Shown one piece after another: positions 18,113 through 37,033 of a stretch of 37,192 nt of DNA (the first letter of the stretch is position 1; each line of letters opens with the position of its first letter). The position numbers and the translations under genes were made by a program. The stretch covers positions 31,956,809 to 31,994,000 of the forward strand of contig CM097885.1 of NCBI GenBank assembly GCA_044892525.1, in the 5' to 3' direction. This DNA is from Schmidtea polychroa. Taxonomy: Eukaryota. The notes under the pieces were generated by a model. The model was not told the origin of the DNA and did not search any database. It saw nothing but the letters and a program-made list of their open reading frames with translations.

Positions 18113-18547
<435 letters not shown>

Positions 18548-21900: not shown

Positions 21901-22150
21901 CACCCATACCTCGCTTTACGGCCTACATACGTTCCACGAAACTTGGCCGCAAAGCGAAAAGCCGTATAAGAAATCGAGATTGCGCTTGCGTAAGATTGGC
22001 AACATGTAGATATATCGACATCGAAAAAAAGTTTTTTTATGCCGTTATAGCGAAACATTTTAGGCCGTGAATCGAAAACGTGCCTTAATTAAAGAGGGCC
22101 GTTATAGCGAAATGCCGTATAAAGAGCGGCCGTATAGCGAGGTATGGATG
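21901..22150. mobile_element. Tc1/mariner(pogo)-type MITE, 250 bp
   Basis: TIRs CA(C/T)CCATACCTCGCT(T/A)TACGGCC; TA dinucleotide on both sides (21899-21900, 22151-22152); internal GCCGT(T)ATAGCGA repeats. Confidence 0.8.
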
Positions 22151-23550
22151 TATTATCCATAATTTTAGAGATATCAAGAATTTGGGATTATGCAACTAAG
22201 CGCAAAAATACAACAACAAATGAACTCGAAGGCATATGTAATCGATGCGGAAAAACAATCAAGTGCGTAAAATCCTCCGTTACTACTTTAAAGACACATC
22301 TCAAAGCAAATGGCATCATTATCGAGATGAATGAACAATCAAGTGAAGAACCCGCTTCAAAGAAACCAAAGACAATATGGGATTTCATGACAAAACCATT
22401 TCGGAAGGAAACAGTTTCTGATCTTGAAACCGAAGGGATTGCAATTAGAACAATAACGCGAAATAGCTATATCCGTAAATCGATTCAACGAGATGGCTTC
22501 AAACTACCAGAAAACGAGTCTGATGTGATGAAACCTTTGCTTGTCGAATACAACGAGAAGAGAGAAAAAATGGAGACTGAAATTCGCTCGATGATACAGG
22601 AAGTTAAATTCAGCATGACGGTCGACGAGTATACTACGATTCATGGCCCACACTTTATCGGAATCAACTTACACGATAGCGTAGAGAAAATGATATGGAA
22701 AACCGGAATTATTCGTATTTTGGGATCTTGCCCTGCCGAGGGCATGTTCAATTCTATCAAGCAGCATTTGATCTCATTTGGAATTAATCCTGAGTGTGAT
22801 CTTGATGCTTCAACTCAAGACAGTGCCGCTGTTAACAAAAAGTACATAAGGGTCCAGGGCGTTATTTGCCAATTTTGCTTTAATCATGCTTTTCACTCGG
22901 ATGTCACCGATACTCTTTACAAAAAGCAAGACAAGATTCAAGATGAAGTTGATTTTGATGAAAATGATGAATTCGACGGAACTGACTTTGAAATCATTGA
23001 TAGCAATACGAACGAATAAATTCAATATAATGAACTTTTCATACAAGCCAGGAAAGTAGTGAAGTACATTAAATTTTCACCAGTTAGGAATTATGCTTTT
23101 CAAGGTAAAGTAAAAGGAAAGCTGAACAAAGAAGTAAAACTGCATTTGGACGAGAAAAAACATCACTAGAATTCAATCCCAGAGCTATTTTAGCCACTCA
23201 TTGAGACTGAAGAAGCACTCAAAGAAACCTTAAAAGATCTCAACGCGAGTTATATGATCGAAAATCTTGATTTTGACGCAAGGTTTTGCTAGCTACGATG
23301 ACTCCAAAAAAACTGATCGTTGAAGTATTAAGCAGAGAAGATTAAACGCTTCAAACTGCAGACACCGATTTTATGTATCGCAAGCTTGCCGGTATGAAAA
23401 GTACAATAAGTGCGGTCTTCTCAAAAATTTGAAAAAAAGAGTGTATGAACGATGGAATCATGATGTAATGAATTTATTACGAGGTGTAAAGGATCCCAAC
23501 ATGGTGAGAACACATAACACAATTATTTATGAAGGAAAGCTCTTCACTCA
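22151..23550 (+). pseudogene. Decayed hAT transposase with N-terminal BED zinc finger, interrupted by the gypsy element
   Basis: IWDY...CNRCGKTIK...TTLKTHL (BED finger); SMTVDEYT (first catalytic D); STQDSAAVN; CFNHAFH (CxxH); degraded TRWNS near 23165. Stops and frameshifts after 23019. The annotated ATG at 22144 lies inside the MITE end. Confidence 0.85.
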
Positions 23551-23764
23551 TATTAGGATTCTCATCCGTTAAAACATTATTATCTGTTTGCAAATCATTA
23601 AACAATTCCATAAATTTTTATTTAATAAATTATACACTCAAAACTTTTGTTTCTTATTTAAACAAATTTCAATCTTTCTTTTTAAAATATTTTTCGATAA
23701 AAATATTTTTAAAATTTTACAAAATTTCTAATTAAAACATTTAGAATCTTTCATCTTCCTCATA
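23551..23764 (-). repeat. 3' LTR of the gypsy element
   Basis: Preceded on the minus strand by PPT AAGAAGGGGGA (23765-23775); termini TATGAGGA...TCCTAATA form an imperfect inverted repeat. Confidence 0.9.
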
Positions 23765-25023
23765 TCCCCCTTCTTAAGAATTTTTTTAAGTTTTTCCACG
23801 TTTCTTTCAATCTTTATTCCATTCTCATTTATTAAGATATATCGCCTGTCATGCACTTTCTCGATTACTTTATATGGTCCCTCATATCTGTCTTGGCTTT
23901 TGTTGCGTGTTTCTAATTTTACTAACACATTTTCTCCTACGTTGAATTCCCTCCTTGTTTGTTCTTCTTGTTCTTCCTTTACCTGTTTTTCTTTGACCCG
24001 TACCACTTTTCCCTGCTAATTTTTTTTCCAAAAACTATCTCTGCCGGAATTTTTCCTGTCGCTTTTTGTTTGGTTGCGTTTAATGTAAATTCGACTTCTG
24101 GTAGTATCTCTGCCCAATCCGTCTTCCTTCTGTCTCGTAAAGTAGCATATATCAGCTCTCGTATTGTCCTTAATTGCATTTCTATCTGTCAATTTATTTG
24201 GTGATGGTATGGACTCGAAAAACACAACTTAATATCAATCATCTTTGTGAATTCTCTCATCATTCCTGATTCCCACAATCAACTCTTATCTACTTTGAGC
24301 ATCCAAATCTTAAAATCCATTTTTCTAAAATCGTTTTATTTATTGTTTCCTCGTTTTGTCTTGTTATAGCTGTCAAGACTTGATACTTACTATACTTATT
24401 ATACCCAATATATACATTATATATATAGTATATATACCCAATATATTATACATTTCGGTTGATTCTAGATTTTTTACTGGTTCCTTCGTTGTAATTGTTA
24501 TAGCCTTGGTTTTTTGGCAAGTCTCACAACTTCGAATAGTTTCCTGAATCTGACTCCACAGGTTTTTCCTAATATATCTATCTTTCATATAATGGGCTAT
24601 CTTCTCAACTCCAGCCTGACACAATAGTCTATGAATTTCCTTTATGGTTTCTTGTATCTCGTTTTCTGGTATCATCGTTTACTTTCGTCATTCTTTTTTC
24701 AAGTTTCCATGTTGATTGGGGCTTTCACCTTCTTCTCTGATCGAGTCTAGTAATCTAGTTTTTATCTTTCCTCTCTTAGCTTCTTCATGAGCCATTTGAC
24801 ATTGAACACACGTTTCACATATAGTTCTAGACATCATGTCTGAATTTTGGTGATTAACACCCTTTCTATATTCAACGATCATATCTAAACTGCTCAAATA
24901 ATTGATCCAGGTTTGGAATTGTGAAGTAATTGGCTACTTGGTTGTCATCATAAACGTGACCGCCTTGTGGCCTGTCCTTAGCGTGAATCTCCTTCCGTAG
25001 AGATAGTACTAGAAATGAATACA
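23765..25023 (-). pseudogene. pol: Gypsy pol 3' part: rest of RNase H and integrase (degenerate)
   Basis: YLYGRRFTLRTDH and EYRKGVNHQNSDMMSR (RNase H); IHRLLCQ...CETCQ (HHCC remnant); SSPYHHQ...QIE core; RYEGPYKVIEKV (GPY/F motif). Confidence 0.9.
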
Positions 25024-25657
25024 AGTAGATGGTATGGTCACCGCTAGAACAGGTCACCGCTGGAACAAAGACATTTTTACCCCACCCCCCCCCCGGCCGG
25101 AAAAAATTTTTAAAAATTTTTTTTTCAAGAACAAAGACATATGACTCATCCGATGACTCATCAAGCATTCAAGGTCGACTTAAGAACAAAGACATATGAC
25201 TCATCCGATGATATATAATTATTATTATTTTTAAAAATATTATTATTTCTAATGTCTTTGTTCCAGCGGTGACCTACTATTTGGCCTGCCAAAAGTTATC
25301 GTTCCCATCAACCTATTTCATCGATCGATAGCTTATTTTGAAGCTTGGTGCAAGACCTTTCGAATGAGCTATTGTTGTTATCACCATCTTTAATATTGAC
25401 AAAGTNNNNNNNNNNNNNNNNNNNNNNNNNNNNNNNNNNNNNNNNNNNNNNNNNNNNNNNNNNNNNNNNNNNNNNNNNNNNNNNNNNNNNNNNNNNNNNN
25501 NNNNNNNNNNNNNNNNNNNNNNNNNNNNNNNNNNNNNNNNNNNNNNNNNNNNNNNNNNNNNNNNNNNNNNNNNNNNNNNCTCCGAGTTTATCCGACAAAA
25601 TATTTTGTCCCCCTATGGGTAATGCTCACAAGGGTACTGGTCACGCTCAACAAATCA
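25024..25657 (+). repeat. Left TIR of the Polinton-like element
   Basis: Reverse complement of 33586-34208, including an N run at the same position; differs by repeat-unit slippage and a few inner substitutions. Confidence 0.92.
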
Positions 25658-25682
25658 ACAAATCAACAAAACATACATTTAT

Positions 25683-26183
25683 TTAAACAATAAAATAATG
25701 TAAAATTAACAAAGGTGAACTAAATATTGATGTACTACTATTCGCAGCAATATTGTTAGAAATTGGTAACGTTGAATTGATTTTCAGATATTCTATTGAT
25801 CCTTTGATTGTTTGAATTTCTCTTAATAATAATTCAATCTTTTTTAATAAATAATCATGCTTCTTATCAATAATTTTCATATTCTTTTTATTTTCAACAA
25901 TAGAGTTATTGAAAACCTCAATATGATCAATCAATTTAATTTTTATATTTTGTATATATTCAAATGATAGTTCATAACTGTTTTCCAAATTCTCCAATCT
26001 TTGAGATATTCTTTTTCCTGGATGCTTTGACCATTTTGGTTTGTCGAGAATATATAAAATATCCATCAACTTGGCTGTATTCGGACAAACACATATTGAT
26101 TTATTAAAAGACTCCACTGTTATTGTTGTATTGTGTGAGCACACACTCGTTATAATAATTAGCAATATGAATATAGTTTTCAT
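25683..26183 (-). CDS. Secreted or GPI-anchored glycoprotein-like protein with coiled coil (166 aa)
   Basis: N-terminal MKTIFILLIIITSVCS signal peptide; heptad-like central region; NxS/T sites (NTT, NKS, NNS, NST, NSS); small-residue stretch followed by a hydrophobic C-terminal tail; TATA ~30 nt upstream. Confidence 0.65.
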   Translation of the reverse strand: MKTIFILLIIITSVCSHNTTITVESFNKSICVCPNTAKLMDILYILDKPKWSKHPGKRISQRLENLENSYELSFEYIQNIKIKLIDHIEVFNNSIVENKKNMKIIDKKHDYLLKKIELLLREIQTIKGSIEYLKINSTLPISNNIAANSSTSIFSSPLLILHYFIV

Positions 26184-26288
26184 GGTGTATCAAATCAAAA
26201 CCATTCTTTTACATTTATAGTCTATCAACCAATCAAAATCATACAGTATTAGTATAAATAAAACATCATATTTTAAATTATTGTAAAA

Positions 26289-26795
26289 ATGTCTCATTTT
26301 ATGGAAAAACTTTTCTCGTCAACAAGAATATTATGGAAAGCCTAAGTTTCCTGGTCGATCGGACCGAAAAGATTATAGAAGGTAATCACATTGATTATGA
26401 GGACGTGCTCAATTCCGATTCCCTCGAAACGAAGAAATTCTATTTTAATAGGATTTTAACTGTCTATGCGACGAGGAGATGAAGTGGACCCGAATATTAG
26501 TAGGGTTCGCTTATATGAAGATCATAATGGAAAGAAGTCTATGGGACTCTGAACATTATTATCAGTGGTCTCAAGAAGTAATACTTTTATAATCTATATT
26601 TTATTAATATTTATTTTCTAGATAATCAAGTCAAAGTTTCAGCCATGGATTGAAGCCAATGGCGGATGGGGCGTGCTGAATCAACTCGCCAGAAATGCAA
26701 AGGAAATAGATCAGCAGAAAATCAAATTTAAAAACTATTTAAAACTTGCAACAGGTGTTGCTATTTTGTATGTTTTATGTCGGTTTTTTAAATAA
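26289..26795 (+). CDS. Bcl-2 family protein (BH3-like, BH1, BH2, C-terminal TM) with a 44-nt intron (26578-26621) and apparent 1-nt frameshift(s); possibly a pseudogene or sequence error
   Basis: BH1-like DEEMKWTRILVGFAY (26470-26514); BH2 WIEANGGW (26646-26669); tail LATGVAILYVLCRFFK*; GT...TTTTCTAG phase-0 intron. The upstream part (MESLSFLVDRTEKII..., from 26333) is in another frame, with a shift near 26467 and possibly near 26292. Confidence 0.8.
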
Positions 26796-26872
26796 AAATT
26801 AATATAGTTATTTTGTTTGATTTTTAAATAAAATTTTAAATAAATTTACAAACACTAATTAACTAAGATTTA

Positions 26873-27154
26873 TTAATTAACACATTCGCAGTCGTCATCT
26901 CCACATTTCATTATATTTTCAACGACATGATCAATACAATCGTTCGTAATATTATCTTTAGATTCATCTTTAGGTTCCTCTATAGGTTCCTCTATAGGTT
27001 CATCTATAGGTTCATAGATTTCCTCTTGAGTTTCTTCCTCATCATCAAATCCTGTATCTTGACTCTCAACTAACCAGCCGATATTTAAGGCATTTGTAAT
27101 AGATAATATGTCCTCAATTTTCACACCAGATATTTCTGCTAACTTTTCCAACAA
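26873..27154 (-). CDS. Small acidic protein with EPI(D/E)E repeats; start uncertain
   Basis: Open frame with coding-like composition; no in-frame ATG found, so it may have an upstream exon or a frameshift. Confidence 0.4.
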   Translation of the reverse strand: MLEKLAEISGVKIEDILSITNALNIGWLVESQDTGFDDEEETQEEIYEPIDEPIEEPIEEPKDESKDNITNDCIDHVVENIMKCGDDDCECVN

Positions 27155-27360
27155 AAGGTTGATTAAAAATTCAAAATAATAAATAATTCGGTAATTAATA
27201 AATCATGTTAACCTTTTTCTGCAGTCATTTTCATCACTTTAAAACTATATTATAAGTTTGTTTATAGATTTTCTTTGTTAAATTTGCATGTCATTTGCAT
27301 TTATGTTGCAATTAATAAAGAGAAAAACAAATCTGACTAATACATTTATTAAATATAACA

Positions 27361-27789
27361 TTAAAATATTTGTGAAAGTCTAGGAGACATAATTTTCCAA
27401 ATAGGAGAATATACATCATTATTATCAACTTTATATCCCTGGATTGCAATTATTATATACCAATTTTCATTTTCTTTGAAACTGATTTCATCAAAAGCAT
27501 CATAAAATCTTGCATATCTATTGTTGAACCACGCATGTTGATTACACGATAGATTCGAATCTATCCGTTTAAAAACATCATCAATAGTTTTGACATCAAT
27601 CATTGAAAGCGTGCCGGATAAGAATTCAAATTTAGTTGGAATTAGCTTGACTGGTGCAACCAATTTCATATTGATTTCTTCTTTCAAAAAATACATTTTG
27701 TAGTTGTGGAACATTTGAACTGGTTGTACCATTTGAACTGGTTGTATCATTTCTTTAGGTTTTTCGGTGCTTGAAATTTTCTTAGTCAT
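27361..27789 (-). CDS. Hypothetical 142-aa protein, possibly OB-fold/ssDNA-binding-like
   Basis: ATG-to-stop ORF with TATAAAAA at 27830-27823. The C-terminal IIIAIQGYKV...YSPIWKI pattern recalls viral gp32-like SSB beta strands (weak inference). Confidence 0.6.
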   Translation of the reverse strand: MTKKISSTEKPKEMIQPVQMVQPVQMFHNYKMYFLKEEINMKLVAPVKLIPTKFEFLSGTLSMIDVKTIDDVFKRIDSNLSCNQHAWFNNRYARFYDAFDEISFKENENWYIIIAIQGYKVDNNDVYSPIWKIMSPRLSQIF

Positions 27790-28163
27790 CGTGAATAATG
27801 AATAAATTTAAATGTTACAGGGTTTTTATACCTTTGACTCATGCCTATCAACCAATCAGATTATAGCATGTCTTTGTTTAAATTGCATTCAAAATGCATT
27901 GATGTTGCATTGTCACATGTTCTATTATTTTTATTAATGTTTTATTATTATTAATGTTTTNNNNNNNNNNNNNNNNNNNNNNNNNNNNNNNNNNNNNNNN
28001 NNNNNNNNNNNNNNNNNNNNNNNNNNNNNNNNNNNNNNNNNNNNNNNNNNNNNNNNNNNNNNNNNNNNNNNNNNNNNNNNNNNNNNNNNNNNNNNNNNNN
28101 NNNNNNNNNNNNNNNNNNNNNNNNNNNNNNNNNNNNNNNNATAAAACACAATAAAAAATACAT

Positions 28164-28581
28164 TTATAGGTAACCTAAATCTACAATCCGGGAGTAGTGA
28201 AACCTTCTCAGAGTTTTCACTAACTCCCATTCGACATATCGCCGATATTGATCGGCACAGCATGAGCATCCGATGATGCATTGGTACTCCGGCTCCATTT
28301 GTTTCATAGTTCTGTTGATTTTCACATTCCATAAAAATTGGTGAAATACCTCCATTATTCTAATTTGCGTGGCATAAAAAATCAAATCAGGGATGATTTC
28401 CGGTTCCCGATCTTTGATTACTTCAGCAATTTGCGGATAATAATATTTTATCCTATTAATCATTATTTTTAAATATTTTTCTAAAATAATAAATATAAAA
28501 AAATGTGAAAATAAAAATTTTAAATTTACCATAATCATCAATATCCTTCATGAGATTCGCGGCGCTCGGAATTTTGTACAT
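28164..28581 (-). CDS. Spliced hypothetical protein (exons 28581-28530 and 28480-28164; 49-nt intron); CxxxCxCC motif
   Basis: ATG 28581 MYKIPSAANLMKDIDDY-G|GTAAATT...TTTTAG|AA restores the frame (...DDYEKYLKIMINRIK...). The ORF track's N-terminus is intron read-through. Confidence 0.7.
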
Positions 28582-28653
28582 AGTGAAATAAATGAATCCT
28601 AAACAAAAAACCGTTTGTTTAAATCAATCAATAACCAATTAGAAATTAACCAA

Positions 28654-29091
28654 TTAGAAATCGACCAATGAAATTATCTCATTTCGAACCTTGTCAACAA
28701 ATTCTCTATACTCCAAATTTCTCAACCCCAACATGACAACCTTTCCACTAGCAAACACGTTGACACATATAGGGTTATATTTTAATAGTCTTAGTGCCGG
28801 AAACAATTCCGGTTCAAACATACAATCACATTTTTTCGATATGTTATATAGATTGATACTATGTCCCATATCCATAGTAACGGTAATTGATTGGATTATA
28901 ATATTATTTATTCGATATTGTAATTTATTAATATCCAAAGGTTTCTTACATCCCATGATTCTGCATTTACCAGTCTTGAAAAATATTATCGGATATTTCC
29001 CACTTCTATCGATAATTTGCTGGGGTTTCCCTGGTGGGAACCTCATATTCGATACATCAAAATTTCCTCGATAATTTATATTTGCTAACAT
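28654..29091 (-). CDS. TATA-binding-protein (TBP)-like protein, minimal two-repeat core (145 aa)
   Basis: Repeat 2 FEPELFPALRL...VNVFASGKVVMLG matches TBP YEPELFPGLIY...LIFxSGKVVLTG; repeat 1 IIFFKTGKCRIMGCK matches LIFSSGKMVCTGAK; QSITVTMDMGHSINL matches QNMVGSCDVxFPIRL. Confidence 0.85.
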   Translation of the reverse strand: MLANINYRGNFDVSNMRFPPGKPQQIIDRSGKYPIIFFKTGKCRIMGCKKPLDINKLQYRINNIIIQSITVTMDMGHSINLYNISKKCDCMFEPELFPALRLLKYNPICVNVFASGKVVMLGLRNLEYREFVDKVRNEIISLVDF

Positions 29092-29190
29092 TATTAAATC
29101 ATTTATGAAAATTAGTCTTTATATACAAATTGAGCACGAGTTCATTAAATCATCGAATATAAACAAATACACATATATAAAATCTTTGAA

Positions 29191-29817
29191 ATGGAATTAA
29201 GAAATGATGCAGTATACCAAATCGTTGGTCCGAGTGGTAGTGGAAAAACATTATTTGTTTGTAAATTACTAAAATCAAATTTATTCAAATCAAAATTCAA
29301 CAGGATTTATTGGCATAGGGGTGCTGATGAAGAACATGGATTAACTCAATCAAGTTTCTGTAAATTAAAAAACATGAAAATAGTAAAGGGATTCGATAAA
29401 AACTGGTCCAGCCGATTAAAGAAAGGTGATGTCATTATTATCGATGATTTGTATCAAGAAGCTAATAAAGAAAAAGATTTTAATAATTTATTTTCAAAGA
29501 TCAGCAGACATGTCGGTGTAACAGTTATTTTCATAACACAAAATCTATTTCATCAAGGTGGGGCACATCGAACACGTAATTTAAATGTACAATATTTAGT
29601 CATTTTCAAGAATCCTAGAGATGCAACAGTGATTGATTTTCTTGCACGTCAAGCATACCCTAACAATCGTAATTTTCTTATCAGTGCATTTCAAGATGCT
29701 ACAAAAATACCTCATGGATATATATTTCTTGATTTCACACAACAATGTCCCGATGATTTACGTGTAAAAACAGATATCTTCAACCCAAAAGGTGTCATGG
29801 TTTATAAACAAAGTTGA
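29191..29817 (+). CDS. Polinton A32-like (FtsK/HerA) DNA-packaging ATPase
   Basis: Walker A GPSGSGKT; Walker B IIIDD; ITQNLF, FKNPRD, LARQAYP and PHGYIFLD motifs typical of Polinton ATPases. Confidence 0.92.
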   Translation: MELRNDAVYQIVGPSGSGKTLFVCKLLKSNLFKSKFNRIYWHRGADEEHGLTQSSFCKLKNMKIVKGFDKNWSSRLKKGDVIIIDDLYQEANKEKDFNNLFSKISRHVGVTVIFITQNLFHQGGAHRTRNLNVQYLVIFKNPRDATVIDFLARQAYPNNRNFLISAFQDATKIPHGYIFLDFTQQCPDDLRVKTDIFNPKGVMVYKQS

Positions 29818-29875
29818 AAACCTCTATGAATAATAATGTTTCTAAAAGCAAGGGTGAAAAATATTAGGAAATTAA

Positions 29876-32800
29876 GAAAAAGTATTAGAAAGAGTATTAA
29901 AGTTCCAAAAGTTCCACCAACAACTAGTTATACACCGTCTAAAAAACTTTTTCTCCAATAACGCCGAAGTTTTTTCCGATAATTTTCTATTAGAGGGCAT
30001 CACTAAGTTAAATAATAAAATTGAAAAATTCACCTATTTAGGAAGCGGATGGCGGGTTGTTAGGATAAAAGAAATAGATTTTATAATAAATAAATATAAA
30101 TGTATAAATAGATTAGCTGGACATAGTTACATCCCCACCCCAGCGGCTTTAAATTCTAAAAAAGCAATTGTAAATATACAGAACACAGATGATATGTGTT
30201 TCATCTATAGTATTCTAGCCCTCTTAAAGCGTGATATTATACACCGCAATAGGCACCGTGTTACTGCTTATGAGAGTTATTTAAACGAGATCAATTTCGA
30301 CCCTATTAGTGATTGCCCGATGAAATTATGTGACATACCCAAATTTGAACGCAAAAACAGTGAACTGAACTTGGCTATTAACGTTTTAACTTATAGGAAT
30401 AAACCAGCTAAGCCTATTGAACATCAAGATATAGATTATATTCCCCATCACCCACATCTAGATATTATTCACCGCTCTAAGGTTATAGGTGGTGAACCCA
30501 TATATTTATTATTATTAGAAGACGGTAGTTATTTTCATTACACCGCAGTTTTTGATCTGCAAAAACTTATGAATTGTCATCCTAATAATTCCTGTAATAT
30601 ACAAATTTGCGTAAAATGGTGTCCTCATTGCCTTAATGGCTTTAGATATAATAAGATATTTAATATACATGTAGATTTATGTAGTAAGAACCAAATAGGT
30701 ACTACATTGTATACCCTACCTAAGGACAAAAATTTAATTTTTAAAGATTTTTCCAAAAGAATAACCCCGCCATTCGTGATATATGCCGATTTTGAGGCAA
30801 TTTTACCTGAAGACATCACCCACCACCAAAAACATATGCCAATAACAGCAGGCATGTTATTAATTAATAATTATAATAATACCAGATTTTATTATGAGTT
30901 TGTTGGGGATGATTGTGTGTTGTCTTTCTTGCGTAAGGTGGAGGAAATTGCTGTCACAATTGTCCTACCATATTACGAAATTAATGGGAAAAAGCCCATG
31001 CAAACCTTGTCTTTCACTGAAGAACGTGTTTTTCGAGAATCCAGAACCTGTTACCTTTGTAAAAAATTCATTAAAGATAGAGTTAGGGATCATTGTCACT
31101 TCACAGGCAAGTATCTTGGTGCTGCCTGTAGGAACTGTAATGTTTCGCGACGAATTCAGAAACAGTTACCGGTTGTCTTTCACAATTTGAGGGGGTATGA
31201 TTTACATCATATTTTGAAGTATGGTTTGAATAATTTTCCTTCTTGGGAATTAAATATTATTCCGACTACTACTGAGAAATTCATCTCCCTCATCGCGTAT
31301 ATTAACAAATTGCCTGTTCGTTTTATTGACAGCATGCAGTTTGTTAATTCATCTTTAGCAAAAGCAGTTAAAACTCTTTCCGATCTGCCTTTAACTTCTT
31401 CTGTTTTTGATGGCGCAATTGTTCGAGCCAAAGGTATCTTTCCTTATGACTTTGCTACATCGCTTGAGGTTCTGGAATCGACTCTTGAACTACCTCCGAT
31501 CTGGGATTCTGTGTCTAATGATGAGTATGCATTAGCCCAAGTTATTTGGACTCAGCAAAATTGCAACAACATGTTAGATTACATGTTAACTTACCTTAAA
31601 TTAGACGTGTTTCTCCTCGCAGATTATTTTACTCAATTCCGTGAAAAGGCCATTGCTTACAATGGTCTGGAGCCTCTTAATTTCTATGGCATTCCCGGTA
31701 TGTCATGGGCCTCAGCGCTTATGACATTAACGGAACCCATTGAACTTCTGCAGGACATGGAAATGTTTAATTTCTATGAAGGAGGGATACGGGGTGGGTT
31801 AACATTTGTTAACAAACATTATGTTGTAAGTTCTGAAGACACAGAACTCTTGTATATTGACATAAATAACTTGTATGGTTGGGCCTTAAGCCAAAAGCTT
31901 CCGTATGCTGACTTTGAATGGGTGTATGATGATCTTGATTCTGTCTTGAATGAATGTATGAATGAGGATATTGAAAATCTTCCATATGGATATACAATGG
32001 AAGTAGATATTGATATCCCTCAGTGTGTGCATGATTTTTTGAATGATTTTCCGATTGCTCCGGAAAAAATGTGCCCGCCAGATTCGAAAGTTGAGAAGCT
32101 GATGCTCACGCATTGGCCGAAGAAGAACCATGTTCTTCATTGGCGACTTCTCAAGTTGTATATAGAATTGGGGGCTGTAATTAAAAATGTACATAGGGCA
32201 ATTAAATTTAAACATGCACCCATTTTTAAAGATTACATATCGACTAATACTAATTTGCGCTCAAATTCTACATGCGAGCTGCATAGAGATTTATATAAAT
32301 TATTTAATAATAGTCTGTATGGGAAATCCGTGGAAAACCTTAAAAAACGGATGAATTTGAGGCTATGCAATTCAGCTGAAAAGATGATTGTATATGCTTC
32401 AAAGCCGACTTTCAAGAAATCAATCAAAATGGCTGATGACTTGATTGCTGCACATCTAAATAAGGATTCTATATGTTTAGACAGGCCTATCTACATTGGC
32501 CAATCTGTGCTAGACCTGTCTAAACTGAGGATGTACCAGTTACAGTATATAGAATTGGCAAAATATCGTTTAGAGTTTAACTGTGATATAAATATCGTTG
32601 CCGGCGACACCGACTCCTTTTTCTTAGAGATAAAGCACTGTAAGCTTGACACTCTTTTGCCGGCAATGATTCGTGATAATCTTCTAGATACCAGCAATTA
32701 TGATCCTGCTCATCCTTTGTATTCAAAGAGTTTGGATTCTGTGATAGGGAAATTTAAGGACGAAAGTAAAGGGCTTGGTTATAAGGAGTGGGTTTTCTTG

Positions 32801-33295
32801 CGCCCTAAGTGTTATAGTTTGTTAGGAGATAAGGCAACACTTAGGGCTAAGGGAGTTCAGCTTGGTAATACTGAGATAGAGCACCAGTCTTATTTAGACT
32901 GCTACAACAACAGCGTAGTATATACGGTGCCACAAACTAGAATAGGGACTCGTAACCACCAGCTCTTTACTTTTAAGAACAGTAAAATAGCCTTGTCGAA
33001 CAACGATGACAAGAGACTATGGGTGGGGCCTAATTCCAGTCTGGCATATGGGCATTATTTAGGATTTGACGAAACTGATGATGGTCAGATATTTTCTGAA
33101 GTAGGACCACATTTTGGTGGCTTGAGTCCAGACCTTGACGATGACTCGGATCCTGATAATCCTGATATTCCTGGTCAGATATTCGAAGAGATTGGCCCGT
33201 TTTTTGGGGGTTTGAGCCCCGATTTTGATGAAGACTCAGACATTTTTATTAGAGAAATCGGCATCGATATTGACGATGTCATTTTATCAGATTAA
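29876..33295 (+). CDS. polB: Protein-primed family B DNA polymerase (pPolB) with an endonuclease VII-like zinc domain; the true start lies upstream of 30194
   Basis: Frame open from 29876 and includes the Polinton N-terminal GSGW...SYIP...KKAIVNIQN motif; DHCHFTGKYLGAAC; Exo I YADFE, Exo II FHNLRGYD, Exo III YLKLDV; Pol A DINNLYG, B KLFNNSLYGK, C GDTDS. Confidence 0.95.
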   Translation, partial: EKVLERVLKFQKFHQQLVIHRLKNFFSNNAEVFSDNFLLEGITKLNNKIEKFTYLGSGWRVVRIKEIDFIINKYKCINRLAGHSYIPTPAALNSKKAIVNIQNTDDMCFIYSILALLKRDIIHRNRHRVTAYESYLNEINFDPISDCPMKLCDIPKFERKNSELNLAINVLTYRNKPAKPIEHQDIDYIPHHPHLDIIHRSKVIGGEPIYLLLLEDGSYFHYTAVFDLQKLMNCHPNNSCNIQICVKWCPHCLNGFRYNKIFNIHVDLCSKNQIGTTLYTLPKDKNLIFKDFSKRITPPFVIYADFEAILPEDITHHQKHMPITAGMLLINNYNNTRFYYEFVGDDCVLSFLRKVEEIAVTIVLPYYEINGKKPMQTLSFTEERVFRESRTCYLCKKFIKDRVRDHCHFTGKYLGAACRNCNVSRRIQKQLPVVFHNLRGYDLHHILKYGLNNFPSWELNIIPTTTEKFISLIAYINKLPVRFIDSMQFVNSSLAKAVKTLSDLPLTSSVFDGAIVRAKGIFPYDFATSLEVLESTLELPPIWDSVSNDEYALAQVIWTQQNCNNMLDYMLTYLKLDVFLLADYFTQFREKAIAYNGLEPLNFYGIPGMSWASALMTLTEPIELLQDMEMFNFYEGGIRGGLTFVNKHYVVSSEDTELLYIDINNLYGWALSQKLPYADFEWVYDDLDSVLNECMNEDIENLPYGYTMEVDIDIPQCVHDFLNDFPIAPEKMCPPDSKVEKLMLTHWPKKNHVLHWRLLKLYIELGAVIKNVHRAIKFKHAPIFKDYISTNTNLRSNSTCELHRDLYKLFNNSLYGKSVENLKKRMNLRLCNSAEKMIVYASKPTFKKSIKMADDLIAAHLNKDSICLDRPIYIGQSVLDLSKLRMYQLQYIELAKYRLEFNCDINIVAGDTDSFFLEIKHCKLDTLLPAMIRDNLLDTSNYDPAHPLYSKSLDSVIGKFKDESKGLGYKEWVFLRPKCYSLLGDKATLRAKGVQLGNTEIEHQSYLDCYNNSVVYTVPQTRIGTRNHQLFTFKNSKIALSNNDDKRLWVGPNSSLAYGHYLGFDETDDGQIFSEVGPHFGGLSPDLDDDSDPDNPDIPGQIFEEIGPFFGGLSPDFDEDSDIFIREIGIDIDDVILSD

Positions 33296-33543
33296 TTTGT
33301 GTTTTAATATATTTTTAAAAAAAAAATAGTCTTTATATTGTTTTATTTCGTTTTATTGAAAACTGGTGATAGTTTTCAAGGTTCTTACAACAGTTAAACG
33401 CTTGTATAAATATATAAAAATTTGATTATTTCACACAAGTGTTAACTTTTGAAAGAATTTTGTTAGAAATTTTATATTTTTATTGTGTAATAGTGTTGCA
33501 GTGGGCACGCAACATTATTTATCTGTTGATAGGATTTTTTTTT

Positions 33544-33545
<2 letters not shown>

Positions 33546-33580
<35 letters not shown>
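33546..33580. repeat. (AAT)n microsatellite just inside the right TIR
   Basis: About 11 AAT units read directly. Confidence 0.9.
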
Positions 33581-33581
<1 letters not shown>

Positions 33582-33585
33582 CCTT

Positions 33586-34208
33586 GTGAGTTGTTGAGCA
33601 TGAGCAGTACCCTTTTGAGCATTACCCATAGGGGGACAAAATATTTTGTCGGATAAACTCGGAGNNNNNNNNNNNNNNNNNNNNNNNNNNNNNNNNNNNN
33701 NNNNNNNNNNNNNNNNNNNNNNNNNNNNNNNNNNNNNNNNNNNNNNNNNNNNNNNNNNNNNNNNNNNNNNNNNNNNNNNNNNNNNNNNNNNNNNNNNNNN
33801 NNNNNNNNNNNNNNNNNNNNNNNNNNNNNNNNNNNACTTTGTCAATATTAAAGATGGTGATAACAACAATAGCTCATTCGAAAGGTCTTGCACCAAGCTT
33901 CAAAATAAGCTATCGATCGATGAAATAGGTTGATGGGAACGATAACTTTTGGCAGGCCAAATAGTAGGTCACCGCTGGAACAAAGACATTAGAAATAATA
34001 ATAATTATATATCATCGGATGAGTCATATGTCTTTGTTCTTAAGTCGACCTTGAATGCTTGATGAGTCATCGGATGAGTCATCGGATGAGTCATATGTCT
34101 TTGTTCTTGAAAAAAAATTTTATAATTTTTTCCGGCCGGGGGGGGGGTGGGGTAAAAATGTCTTTGTTCCAGCGGTGACCTGTTCTAGCGGTGACCATAC
34201 CATCTACT
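33586..34208 (-). repeat. Right TIR of the Polinton-like element
   Basis: Inverted copy of the left TIR; one extra GATGAGTCATCG unit. Confidence 0.92.
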
Positions 34209-34214
34209 AATACA

Positions 34215-35825
34215 AAAATAGTATAGCACCAATAGTTCCTTTCTTTTAATGCAATATCGTTTTTCATGGCTCGTCATCGAGTGTAATCCATACGCAATTA
34301 CTCTCTCCTTTCCATCTTTCCAATCCCTCGAATATGTTATTCGTTCCTTCAATTCATTCAGGTTTTTTGTTACTCGGACCGCTACATAATTGTTCTAACA
34401 TCCTTGGTTCCTTTGCATACTCAATGATGAATTTTCAATAATAATTGCAAATGCCTAGGAAGCTTCAAAGTTTCTTTACGCAACTTGGCTTCCCAAAGTT
34501 TTGTATAGCCTGAATTTTAGAAGGATCTGTCTGTAATCCTTCTTTGCTGAGTATGCATCCTAAGAATCTGATTTCTCTGTGTATTATTTGACATTTCTGG
34601 GTTAATCTTTAGTCCTGCTTCCTCGATCGCTTTTAATACTTCACTGAGTATTGTATAATCCTTTTCTTTACTATTCGAATAAATCAAAATGTCATCCAAA
34701 TTCACTATTGCTCCATTTATTTTGCCTATTACCTTTGTCATAATTTCCTGGAACGTACCTGGTGCTGCAGCAATTCCGAACGACATTCTATTGAAACAGT
34801 ATTGCTCTTTCTTTGTTGAGAAGGCTGTTTTCCCTTGCGCTTTACCAAGATCAATTGAGCTAAAAAAACGGACCCTCCTAACAAATCTAACATCTCGTCT
34901 ATGTTTGGCATTGGGAATGCTTGCCTCTCTGTTACTGCATTCTGCTGTCTGAAATCCAAGCATAACCTAATATCCTTTTTCTCTTTTTTCCAAAGCAGAT
35001 TAAAGGCGTGTTTCATGGGGAGTTGCATTTCCATATAATCCCGTTTTCGTACAAATTTTGTATTGCTTCTTTAATTTTTGTTCACAAATTTAATGGTTGA
35101 CGATATGGTTTTATGTTTATTGGTTCACTTCTTGTAATTATCTTATGTTTTACTAATTGTGTTCGACCCACATCCCATTTATCCCACATAAACATGTTTC
35201 CACTGTTTGTTATTATTTCCTTTAATTTACTATCCTCATTAATCTTTAGGTGTTCCAACGCTCGCGTCAATCGTTCTCCATCCTTTATTTTTCTGCCAAA
35301 TTTGGCTTCAATTTTACAAATATAGTTCTTGTCTTTTTCACAAGTTTCGATATCTTTCTTTTTTTCCAACCTATATCCAAATGCTTCTTGTAATTCTACT
35401 CCTACAATCACCTCTGGTGTCACTTTCTCCGCCACAATGAATCTAACTTCATTGGAAATATCTTCGATAGTTATTTTAACCTTTGTTCTTCCAATTGTCT
35501 CTATCGTACTTTCGTTTGCACATCGTAACTTATTGTCGCTTCTCATCAATTGTTATTCTAGTAACTTGTTATAACAGTTCACACTCATTACGTTTATTCG
35601 TGCTCCGGTGTCTAATAAACAGTCGAAAATTTTCCCATTCATCATTACTGTTACACTAGGTCTTCCATGTAGCTTGTTATACACAATTTCTACCTCCTGC
35701 CCCGTTTCAATTGTTCCAATTCTTTCCAGTTCCTCTTCAAACCTTTCTCTCCTTAGGAACCTGTATACTTTCTCACTTACCCTTCCTACATTCTCCCACT
35801 TTTCTACCCCTTGAGGATATCCCAT
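34215..35825 (-). pseudogene. pol: Gypsy pol 5' part: protease, reverse transcriptase and start of RNase H (degenerate)
   Basis: CLLDTGARINVM (aspartic protease); IRLCLDFRQQNAVT...FPMPNID; FNRMSFGIAAAPGTFQ; VNLDDILIYS (YxDD equivalent). Many frameshifts. Confidence 0.92.
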
Positions 35826-35949
35826 CCACTTTTCTGTTAGTATATGTCTCCAACCAACTCCTCTACTGGTGGCGCCCTAATGTTTAGGTACGTCCTACTA
35901 AAATTATCGTACGATTCCATTCCCTCTTCTTCCTCGATTTCATTAATCC

Positions 35950-36761
35950 GACTGTATCTGTTTCCTGCCGGTCTTTGTTTCTCTATCGTTTTCTTGTAAC
36001 TCGACTTTGTTTAACATTCTTTAGATCTATGACCATTTCTGTTGCATCTTTTACACCGTATTTCTTGACATAACCTTCTTATATGACCTTCTTTCCCACA
36101 ACCAAAACATCTTGGAACTTTTTTATCTGGAAAGTTCCTACTTATATGTCCGATTCTGTGATACGTCCAGTACTCTATCTTACTTATTTTCGTGTGGCCT
36201 ATATTTTGGCATAGCCAGCACTCTGGCTCTTCTCGTCTCCTGCCTTCTTCTCTTTCATCTTTCTGCTGGTACTGTACTCTTCCCTGTGGATCATGATAGA
36301 CCACTCTTGAGTAACTTTTCATAGCGTTTCTCCCCGTTATTCATCAAAATTAATGTTTCCTTTATCTCATCTGTGCTTTTTATCTTCCGGAATATTACTT
36401 CTTTCTCAACTTCTTTATTCTCAGCACATACTATCAACATCTTTGCTGTTATTTTCTCTTTGGTGAATTCTTTGTTCTCAAACAACCTGTCGACAAGGCC
36501 CTCCACTTTTTAAAAAATATGTTTCAATCTCTTCGCCTCTTCTTTTAAAATTCAATAAACTTTCCATATCCTTTATTACGTCTCTTTCGTAATCAAATGC
36601 CATTCGTAACCTGGCTTGAAATCCTTTTGCTTTTGAAGTGTTTTTGCATATTTTTCCAATTGATCCTCGTCGATTATACATGCATTCAATCTTTCTTGTT
36701 CTTTTTTATTGATGCCTTTAGCATCGAAAAAAATCTCGCATCTTCTAATAAACTTTTCCAA
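35950..36761 (-). pseudogene. gag: Gypsy gag (frameshifted) with multiple CCHC zinc knuckles
   Basis: CFGCGKEGHIRRLC and CKRCNRNGHRSKEC intact, two more degenerate knuckles; reading frame broken into several short ORFs. Confidence 0.85.
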
Positions 36762-36808
36762 GTCATCACACTTTTGGCAACAATTTTTCGGTGATCGCGT
36801 CGGTGTTT

Positions 36809-36821
36809 ACCGCTGCCACCA
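36809..36821 (-). promoter_or_regulatory. Primer-binding site, tRNA-Leu type
   Basis: TGGTGGCAGCGGT directly after the 5' LTR; complementary to the ...ACCGCTGCCACCA 3' end of eukaryotic tRNA-Leu. Confidence 0.75.
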
Positions 36822-37033
36822 CATTAGGATTCTCATCCCTTAACACATTAATATCTGTTTGCAAATTACTAAATAATTCCATAAATTTTATTTAATAAAT
36901 TATACACTCAAAACTTTTGTTTCTTATTTAAACAAATTTCAATCTTTTTTTTGAAATATTTTTCGATAAAAATATTTTAAAAATTTAACAAAATTTCTAA
37001 TTAAAACTTTTAGAATCTTTCAACCTCTTCATA
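36822..37033 (-). repeat. 5' LTR of the gypsy element
   Basis: Direct repeat of 23551-23764, roughly 90-93% identical by eye; termini TATGA...CCTAAT(G). Confidence 0.9.

What the first reader, a model, noticed from the sequence alone, without database searches (positions are those of the whole stretch)
26289..26795. Hidden intron-containing Bcl-2-family gene inside the Polinton-like element
Not in the ORF track because it is split. Manual translation gives a BH3-like helix (MESLSFLVDRTEKII), BH1-like (VY.DEEMKWTRILVGFAY, cf. NWGRIVAF), BH2 (WIEANGGW) and a C-terminal membrane anchor with basic end (LATGVAILYVLCRFFK). A 44-nt GT-AG intron separates BH1 from BH2. Established: large DNA viruses (herpes-, pox-, adeno-, asfarviruses) use vBcl-2 proteins to block apoptosis. 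I do not know of this as standard Polinton cargo. Inference: an apoptosis regulator captured from host DNA that may protect cells carrying the replicating element. One or two single-base frameshifts (near 26467 and 26292) mean this copy is either decaying or mis-assembled.
Basis: partly seen in the sequence, partly recalled or inferred. Interest (0 to 1): 0.9.

Follow-up and report, generated by a model that had tools for sequence, protein, structure and literature searches.

The report
Spliced Bcl-2 gene in planarian Polintons
A virus-like jumping element with about a thousand copies in this flatworm-like genome carries a small two-exon gene of the Bcl-2 cell-death family, likely taken from the host and predicted to keep the cell alive while the element multiplies; the copy in this window is broken, and Bcl-2 cargo has been mentioned before for such elements.

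Summary
The gene is a real two-exon Bcl-2-family gene inside a Polinton (Maverick/adintovirus) insertion with terminal inverted repeats and a 6-bp target duplication. The window copy is a decayed allele: two short deletions break exon 1, and an internal deletion has removed the integrase, capsid-like and protease genes. 25 of the 29 closest siblings are intact, and the exon-1/donor motif occurs 970 times in the genome. Protein spacing alone places the intron on GT..AG ends in six element lineages, with lengths of 38-98 nt. Both exons are under purifying selection (dN/dS 0.06-0.24 among lineages A and C). Exons 1 and 2 align without gaps to adjoining residues of a planarian 'bcl2-like' protein. 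The single host orthologue of that protein is the closest non-element relative and has its intron elsewhere, so this intron was probably gained in the element. Spliced reads and anti-apoptotic activity are not shown, and the BH3 motif is degenerate. Bcl2 cargo in adintoviruses and intron-bearing Maverick cargo are both in print. This scan found the same gene earlier on other DNA of this genome.

The parts
26289..26577 (+). Exon 1 of the Bcl-2-family gene (helices 1-5 and the start of 6, degenerate BH3, BH1). Broken in this copy by two short deletions near 26314 and 26454
   Evidence: The sibling exon aligns without gaps to P0004 residues 37-126; PF00452 E 0.013
26578..26621 (+). 44-nt phase-0 GT..AG intron inside helix 6, between BH1 and BH2 (predicted; no spliced read seen)
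26622..26795 (+). Exon 2: rest of helix 6, BH2 (26646-26669), short hydrophobic tail anchor (about 26739-26789), stop codon overlapping AATAAA (26791-26796)
   Evidence: gap-free alignment to P0004 residues 127-178; best PDB hits are Bcl-xL, E 0.1; hydropathy 1.71 over 17 aa
26253..26259 (+). TATAAAT box 36 nt before the start codon; a TATAAA box at -33 to -45 is seen in lineages A1, A2, A3 and D (putative promoter)
25024..25657 (+). Left terminal inverted repeat (starts AGTAG); the 6-bp target duplication lies at 25018-25023
33587..34208 (-). Right terminal inverted repeat; the matching 6-bp target duplication lies at 34209-34214
25683..26183 (-). Coiled-coil ORF with an N-terminal hydrophobic stretch, transcribed divergently from the Bcl-2 gene
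   Evidence: only coiled-coil-type hits, all below cut-off
26873..27228 (-). Acidic ORF, convergent with the Bcl-2 gene; appears to have its own micro-exon and a short GT..AG intron
27361..27789 (-). 142-aa ORF conserved in element lineages A and B; no Pfam or PHROG name (the 'SSB-like' label is recalled, not tested)
28654..29091 (-). TBP-like gene
   Evidence: PF00352 E 2e-15
29191..29817 (+). A32-type packaging ATPase
   Evidence: PF04665 29.8 bits, over the cut-off
29876..33295 (+). Family-B DNA polymerase remnant. An internal deletion at about 29945 (about 6.4 kb relative to sibling L078/L079) has removed the basic core ORF, integrase, two capsid-sized ORFs, protease and the polymerase N-terminus

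Best explanation
This is a two-exon Bcl-2-family gene carried by an abundant planarian Polinton family, likely captured from the host's single-copy bcl2-like gene and predicted to encode a tail-anchored pro-survival protein that would hold off mitochondrial apoptosis in cells where the element is expressed and copied; the copy in this window is broken. Shown: family membership, conserved exon structure across six lineages, purifying selection, Polinton context, closest host relative, and decay of this copy. Inferred steps: (1) transcription from a TATA box by host RNA polymerase II, probably early; (2) removal of the short intron by the host spliceosome to give a 156-aa protein; (3) anchoring in the outer mitochondrial or ER membrane by the C-terminal helix; (4) binding of the BH3 helices of host Bak/Bax/Bok-like or BH3-only proteins in the BH1-BH2 groove; (5) longer survival of the cell during protein-primed replication and integration, which is what selection on the element would preserve. 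Inferred history: one capture, loss of the host's 3-kb intron after BH2 and of the loop between helices 1 and 2, and gain of a new intron in helix 6 in the ancestor of the intron-bearing lineages.
For: Family: PF00452 is over the cut-off for sister lineage A2 read through with X (34.6 bits) and for intronless lineage B (32.5); 8 of 8 exon-1 rows match PF00452 at E<=1. The best PDB sequence hits are BCL2A1 for exon 1 and Bcl-xL for exon 2. Intron: placed only by the host protein's helix-6-to-BH2 spacing, it falls on GT..AG in 28 of 28 scorable A1 loci (30 examined) and in 19 of 20 scorable loci of other lineages (one has AT..AG; 4 more were not scorable), with lengths of 38-98 nt. The chance of GT plus AG at one such pair of places is about 0.002. 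Exon 1 ends at P0004 residue 126 and exon 2 starts at 127, with no gaps. Selection: dN/dS 0.06-0.07 (A1/A2), 0.18 (A1/A3), 0.16 (A1/C); Fisher p 1e-25 and 2e-13; seen in both exons. 25 of 29 siblings are intact, and there are 970 exact donor motifs. Donor: host locus L042, 89% identical to the S. mediterranea 'bcl2-like protein' P0004, or P0004 itself is the best host match for 13 of 13 element rows (62-93 bits against at most 40). It shares W-[ST]-R, P-W and the degenerate BH3 with most of them, has no element genes within the 10 kb fetched, and has its intron after GGW. Precedent: adintovirus homologues of anti-apoptotic Bcl2 and IAP (PMC8502044); planarian bcl2-1 RNAi causes systemic cell death (PMC6970515 citing Pellettieri 2010); planarian Polintons are piRNA-repressed and desilenced during differentiation (PMC8532177).
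Against: No function was tested. The BH1 glycine of NWGR is Thr or Ser and BH3 is degenerate, which could mean a changed or closed groove, although the host orthologue has the same states. A profile of exon-1 rows hits BAK best among Bcl-2 chains, and a designed PPR repeat protein ranks above them. The predicted folds are weak: pLDDT 63.7 and 61.7; Foldseek ranks Bcl-xL first but at E 0.83 and 5e-3 with TM about 0.3-0.4; VIA best Z 8.4 is tied with unrelated helical proteins. The tree does not prove the donor: element rows plus L042/P0004 form one side of a branch at only 38/41 support, and grouping the elements with the retrotransposon-borne Bcl-2 is not rejected (p-AU 0.24). I could not verify that P0004 is the bcl2-1 gene of the RNAi experiment. 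dN/dS against lineage D is higher (0.33-0.52), with dS near saturation. The intact count comes from the 30 best of 40 scored matches among 1687 candidates, so it is biased towards well-preserved copies.
Confidence: 0.75

Rival explanations
1. The protein keeps the Bcl-2 fold but works outside the BH3-groove pathway, for example by damping innate-immune signalling, autophagy or ER calcium release, as some viral Bcl-2-fold proteins do (recalled).
For: NWGR reads W-T/S-R/K and there is no G-D BH3 signature in any element lineage; identity to the host donor is only 26-51%.
Against: The host orthologue has the same motif states. BH2 and the tail anchor are kept in lineages A, C and D. The BH1 Arg is kept in all intron-bearing lineages.
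Confidence: 0.13
2. The protein is a pro-death or membrane-permeabilising effector (Bak/Bok-like) that helps particles leave the cell late in a viral cycle.
For: The exon-1 profile hits BAK chains best among Bcl-2 proteins (E 4e-4). Beta adintoviruses encode other membrane-active proteins (PMC8502044).
Against: There is no canonical BH3, which Bak/Bax oligomerisation needs (recalled). Single-sequence hits are the pro-survival BCL2A1 and Bcl-xL. The gene has a TATAAAT box, not the TATAAAC box found before the ATPase and core genes. About a thousand copies of a killer gene would be costly.
Confidence: 0.07
3. The gene is a passive hitchhiker or pseudogene multiplied with the element, and the 'intron' is an unspliced A/T-rich insertion.
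For: The window copy is broken, the fetched copies of lineages C and E often carry stops, and no spliced joint was listed in contig data (which cannot show absence).
Against: dN/dS is far below 1 on both exons, including exon 2, which could only be translated after splicing. The GT..AG ends are fixed while the interior varies in length and frame.
Confidence: 0.04
4. On origin only: the helix-6 intron was inherited from a host paralogue that I did not find, or that is now lost, rather than gained in the element; lineage B then lost it.
For: Six-frame profile scans find split genes poorly and scored only 150 of 909 candidates. The tree supports one group of intron-bearing rows only at 73/77. Nematode Maverick cargo keeps introns (bioRxiv 2022.07.12.499685).
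Against: All host Bcl-2 loci recovered (L031-L045) run from BH1 to BH2 in one exon. The closest host gene lacks this intron. A neighbouring element gene with no host look also appears to have a short intron.
Confidence: 0.25

Closest known systems
Bcl2 homologues of adintoviruses / animal Polintons (Starrett et al. 2021, PMC8502044)
   Same: Bcl-2-family accessory gene in a Polinton-type element with PolB, integrase, packaging ATPase and protease. 'Bcl2' appears 3 times in the text of Suppl. Fig. S2.
   Different: There it is one sentence and map labels: no intron, donor or selection is described in the parts I read, and no planarian is named in the main text or the held supplement. Suppl. Fig. 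S1 (slides) could not be read.
Planarian cellular 'bcl2-like protein' (P0004; UniRef C9WPR4, ACW83059.1) and its orthologue L042
   Same: Collinear over both exons and the tail; shared W-[ST]-R, P-W and degenerate BH3.
   Different: 24-31% identity to the A1 exons. The element version lacks the N-terminal residues and most of the helix 1-2 loop, lacks the 3-kb intron after GGW, and has a short intron in helix 6 instead.
Intron-bearing cargo genes of nematode Mavericks (wasp proteases, KRMA kinases; bioRxiv 10.1101/2022.07.12.499685)
   Same: Spliced, host-derived-looking gene near the left TIR of a Maverick (passages).
   Different: Different protein family. Here the intron does not match the likely donor gene, and the gene is kept across several diverged element lineages in one genome.
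Burro giant retrotransposons of planarians (BCL2-like and BIR domains; PMC6431247, PMC13465017)
   Same: A mobile element of planarians carrying apoptosis regulators. Such Bcl-2 domains occur in this genome in ORFs of up to about 3050 aa.
   Different: LTR retroelement with the domain inside a polyprotein; its Bcl-2 domain scores at most 33 bits against the Polinton genes.
Viral Bcl-2 proteins of herpes-, pox-, asfar- and adenoviruses (BHRF1, F1L, A179L, E1B-19K; recalled)
   Same: Compact Bcl-2 fold with a tail anchor, used to delay host cell death. A179L appears among the VIA hits (Z 7.2).
   Different: Carried by an integrating element with hundreds of genomic copies, and dependent on splicing. 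No significant match to viral models or viral contigs.

Membership tests
Bcl-2 family (PF00452) | Profile match over the curated cut-off | tested here: met
   Sister lineage A2 34.6 bits, lineage B 32.5, several A2/A3 loci in the genome scan. A1 exon 1 alone scores 16.5, below the cut-off; the whole spliced A1 protein was not scored against Pfam
Bcl-2 family (PF00452) | BH1 and BH2 motifs at canonical spacing | tested here: met
   W-T-R BH1 and W-x4-G-G-W BH2; the spacing equals the host protein's once the intron is left out
Bcl-2 family (PF00452) | Helical bundle around a central hydrophobic helix 5 | tested here: inconclusive
   Helix order fits and Bcl-xL ranks first in three PDB searches, but the models are of low confidence
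Bcl-2 family (PF00452) | C-terminal membrane anchor with basic flank | tested here: met
   17-aa window KD 1.71 (host P0004: 1.39), ending in R/K. Sequence only; localisation untested
Pro-apoptotic Bax/Bak/Bok effectors | Canonical BH3 (L-x3-G/A-D-x-hydrophobic; recalled) | tested here: not met
   No element lineage has it; host L034 does
Pro-survival Bcl-2 / viral Bcl-2 | Binds BH3 helices and blocks mitochondrial permeabilisation | not testable with these tools
   Needs binding and cell assays
Spliceosomal intron | GT..AG ends at a conserved codon boundary, removal restores the frame | tested here: met
Spliceosomal intron | Junction seen in RNA | tested here: inconclusive
   Only contigs of runs guessed to be RNA were available; no joint was listed
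Polinton/Maverick (adintovirus) | Long TIRs and 6-bp target duplication | tested here: met
Polinton/Maverick (adintovirus) | Family-B polymerase and packaging ATPase | tested here: met
   ATPase PF04665 over the cut-off. The polymerase motifs are visible in the ORF, but PF00136 scores only E 0.049; protein priming is not tested
Polinton/Maverick (adintovirus) | rve integrase and adenovirus-type protease | tested here: met
   Met for siblings: rve E 3e-7 (just under the cut-off), Peptidase_C5 over the cut-off. Deleted from the window copy
Polinton/Maverick (adintovirus) | [quoted passage not shown] | tested here: inconclusive
   ORFs of about 420 and 360 aa in siblings; no Pfam, PHROG or PDB hit. 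Atlas look-alike at 0.98, with PF21738 DJR-like on 15% of one cluster's members
Beta adintovirus | Divergent PolB outside pfam03175, with N-terminal OTU-like domain | tested here: inconclusive
   No PF03175 hit; OTU domain and phylogeny not tested

The most novel reading that the evidence does not exclude
Planarian Polintons captured the host's essential pro-survival bcl2 gene once, rebuilt it as a compact viral-style gene with an intron gained inside the element, and kept it under selection across at least six lineages. The roughly one thousand copies, desilenced as stem-cell progeny differentiate, now add to the animal's own cell-death threshold. That would be a second, independent anti-apoptotic partnership between a mobile element and a regenerating host, beside Burro1.
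Probability: 0.15. Interest if true: 0.8.

Novelty: new member of a known kind. Interest (0 to 1): 0.45.

Why it matters
Animal Polintons have no well-described life cycle. A conserved, selected anti-death gene is what a replicating virus needs and a quiet transposon does not, so it argues for an active somatic or stem-cell phase. The likely donor is in the same genome, which makes this a clear case for studying how a DNA element captures a host gene and remodels its introns. Planarians allow RNAi, so whether element-borne Bcl-2 changes host cell death or regeneration can be tested directly. The basic fact (Bcl2 as adintovirus cargo) is not new.

Tried and rejected
RNA evidence: no RNA holder is on record. 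Contigs of 4 of the 14 listed runs were laid on the gene and its upstream neighbour. No joint across the intron was listed, and contigs cannot show absence. Two contigs of run X1 begin exactly at the first base of exon 2. That fits a spliced/unspliced branch point, but a nearby variant could also cause it (none was seen at the expected place in 36 aligned rows, some of them duplicates), so I do not count it. A search for a precisely intronless A1 copy found 9 short-gap matches, none an exact loss. Protein database searches with exon 1 gave only two unnamed close relatives. Viral contigs: 304 pattern matches, none confirmed. Foldseek against viral models: nothing at E<=0.001. The profile search of 1.84 billion representatives was still queued when I stopped, so the range outside this genus is open; the only hint is short contigs from a run labelled as a second organism. 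Trees are mostly unresolved, with long branches; the second tree left out 6 near-duplicate rows of 23, and host rows L043/L045 (partial exons) were in neither. Pellettieri 2010 is not held. Accession searches, two of them typed from recall, found no link between P0004 and bcl2-1. Literature searches that showed no description of this planarian gene by listing or passages: Polinton+Bcl-2 (3 papers), Polinton+planarian+Schmidtea (8), Maverick+Polinton+intron+apoptosis (14), cargo/intron (9), Burro1+apoptosis (3); PMC11410931 has no hit for polinton, maverick or bcl. Subscription journals and Repbase entries are not covered. Rejected: mis-assembly as the cause of the breaks; other acceptor AGs (26630, 26636, 26642), which would shorten the canonical spacing; the hydrophobic peptide read through the A2/A3 intron as a real alternative anchor (it is absent in A1 and follows from A/T-rich codons). 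Complex prediction was not run, because a pass would follow from likeness to solved Bcl-2:BH3 structures.

Full report
Observation. The described pieces are in the sequence: a start at 26289, a BH1-like stretch at 26479-26514, a 44-nt GT..AG segment at 26578-26621, BH2 at 26646-26669, and a hydrophobic tail before the stop at 26793-26795. In the window, exon 1 is spread over three frames. A search of the own genome returned 40 scored matches at 97-100% identity from 1687 candidates. All 30 fetched loci have the same 44-nt segment, and 25 of the 29 siblings have a start codon, an open 99-codon exon 1 and an open 57-codon exon 2. The window copy differs from them by two short deletions near 26314 and 26454. 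L009, on another contig, shares the second, so this is a decayed allele rather than an assembly error. A 19-base motif across the donor occurs 970 times in the genome, against 0 for the reversed control.

Family. Exon 1 of a sibling has PF00452 as its only Pfam hit, below the cut-off (E 0.013). Its best PDB hits are BCL2A1, and exon 2's are Bcl-xL. A PF00452 scan of the genome found diverged sister lineages over the cut-off (68-75% identical in exon 1), and one of them, read through its in-frame intron with X, scores 34.6 bits. Two predicted models are all-helical but weak. Bcl-xL ranks first in both Foldseek PDB searches and in the VIA search, without reaching significance. The fold test is therefore inconclusive, and membership rests on sequence. 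BH3 is degenerate and the BH1 glycine is replaced.

Intron. Further searches uncovered lineages C, D and E at 36-50% identity in exon 1, and an intronless lineage B. I placed the boundary without looking for splice signals, using only the 12-residue spacing between the helix-6 and BH2 tryptophans of the host protein. It fell on GT..AG in 28 of 28 scorable A1 loci (of 30) and in 19 of 20 scorable loci of A2, A3, C, D and E (4 more not scorable), with lengths of 38 to 98 nt in all three frames. The chance for one such pair is about 0.002, though the lineages are related. Exon 1 aligns without gaps to residues 37-126, and exon 2 to residues 127-178, of P0004. dN/dS is 0.06-0.24 among lineages A and C and low on each exon separately, and 0.33-0.52 against D. 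Direct junction evidence is missing: only contigs of guessed RNA runs were available, and they listed no such joint.

Element. The gene lies 0.6 kb inside the left TIR of a 9.2-kb insertion (25024-34208) with a 6-bp target duplication, together with TBP-like, A32 ATPase and PolB genes. Siblings carry, after the ATPase, a basic ORF, an rve integrase with chromodomain, two capsid-sized ORFs, an adenovirus-type protease and a PolB of up to 1445 aa. The window copy has lost about 6.4 kb of this relative to L078/L079. The family is thus a Polinton/adintovirus, and this copy is non-autonomous.

Origin. One locus, L042, has no element genes in the 10 kb fetched, has no near copy in the search (next hit 48%), and is 89% identical to the S. 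mediterranea 'bcl2-like protein' P0004. From this I infer a planarian host. L042 or P0004 is the best host match for 13 of 13 element rows by a wide margin and shares their unusual motif states. It has one intron, of about 3 kb, after GGW, and none in helix 6. None of the host loci L031-L045 is interrupted between BH1 and BH2. The simplest history (inferred) is one capture, loss of the long host intron and of the helix 1-2 loop, and gain of a short intron in the element; a neighbouring element gene seems to have a short intron too. The trees do not prove this: support is 38/41 for elements plus donor and 73/77 for the intron-bearing rows, and a link to the retrotransposon-borne Bcl-2 is not rejected.

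Mechanism. Inferred: transcription from a TATAAAT box at -36, splicing, tail anchoring, and sequestration of host BH3 helices, which would delay mitochondrial apoptosis while the element replicates. Selection on both exons across lineages shows that the protein mattered to the element. The pro-survival direction rests on the lack of an effector-type BH3, the likely donor, and analogy with viral Bcl-2 proteins (recalled). Planarian bcl2-1 knockdown kills cells systemically (PMC6970515, passage; also PMC3566077, passage), but I could not tie that gene to P0004. Planarian Polintons are piRNA-repressed and desilenced during differentiation (PMC8532177, passages), which gives a setting for expression.

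What is known. Starrett et al. (PMC8502044; sections 3.1-3.2 read; passages; Suppl. Fig. S2 text; Fig. S1 unreadable) state that adintovirus homologues of Bcl2 and IAP were observed. Nematode Mavericks carry intron-bearing cargo near the left TIR (bioRxiv 2022.07.12.499685, passages). Introners occur in dinoflagellate Polinton-like elements (PMC12166617, passages). Planarian Burro retrotransposons hold BCL2-like and BIR domains (PMC6431247, passages), and Burro1's IAP is reported to protect stem cells (PMC13465017, passages citing another study). My searches showed no description of this planarian gene, but this scan noted it twice before in this genome.

Verdict. A real, spliced, selected Bcl-2 cargo gene of a very abundant Polinton family, broken in this copy. 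It is a new member of a kind already mentioned in print; the added value is an identifiable likely donor, a probably element-gained intron, and direct testability in an RNAi-tractable animal. Interest 0.45.

Noticed in passing
window 27172-27228 (-); L063, L072, L076: The acidic ORF seems to start with a 16-nt micro-exon behind a TATAAAC box, followed by a GT donor in 4 of 4 copies read and an AG acceptor about 41 nt on in 3 of 4 (lost in the window): a second short intron in the element.
   Followed up: partly
L053/L067/L069: A second Polinton lineage (PolB about 61% identical) carries an intronless Bcl-2 gene, 48% identical to host L042, head-to-head with the SSB-like ORF.
   Followed up: yes
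G000, e.g. L150, L157, L052: Many very long ORFs (up to about 3050 aa) hold a Bcl-2 domain, as described for Burro retrotransposons; so two classes of mobile element in this genome carry Bcl-2.
   Followed up: partly
L063/L064: Two inverted arms, each with Bcl-2, acidic, SSB-like and PolB pieces: a palindromic derivative, like those in earlier scan notes.
   Followed up: no
window 29158 and 29803 (+) versus 26253 (+): The ATPase and core ORF have TATAAAC at -33; the Bcl-2, coiled-coil, SSB-like and TBP-like genes have other TATAAA boxes at -32 to -41. This fits an early/late split suggested by earlier notes.
   Followed up: partly
window 23549-25017 and 34215-37033: The Polinton appears to interrupt an LTR retroelement: similar repeats at both ends and gag/protease/RT/integrase-like ORF pieces on the minus strand (names from motif recall).
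   Followed up: no
L031-L037 (G000:C4 89.9-90.8 Mb): Seven near-identical host Bcl-2 genes with canonical NWGR and a BH3-like motif in a local cluster.
   Followed up: no
window 18116-18547 (+), 22144-23019 (+), 3465-4916 (-): Homeobox exon (PF00046), BED-finger transposase-like ORF, and a 483-aa host ORF without a Pfam match at cut-off.
   Followed up: no
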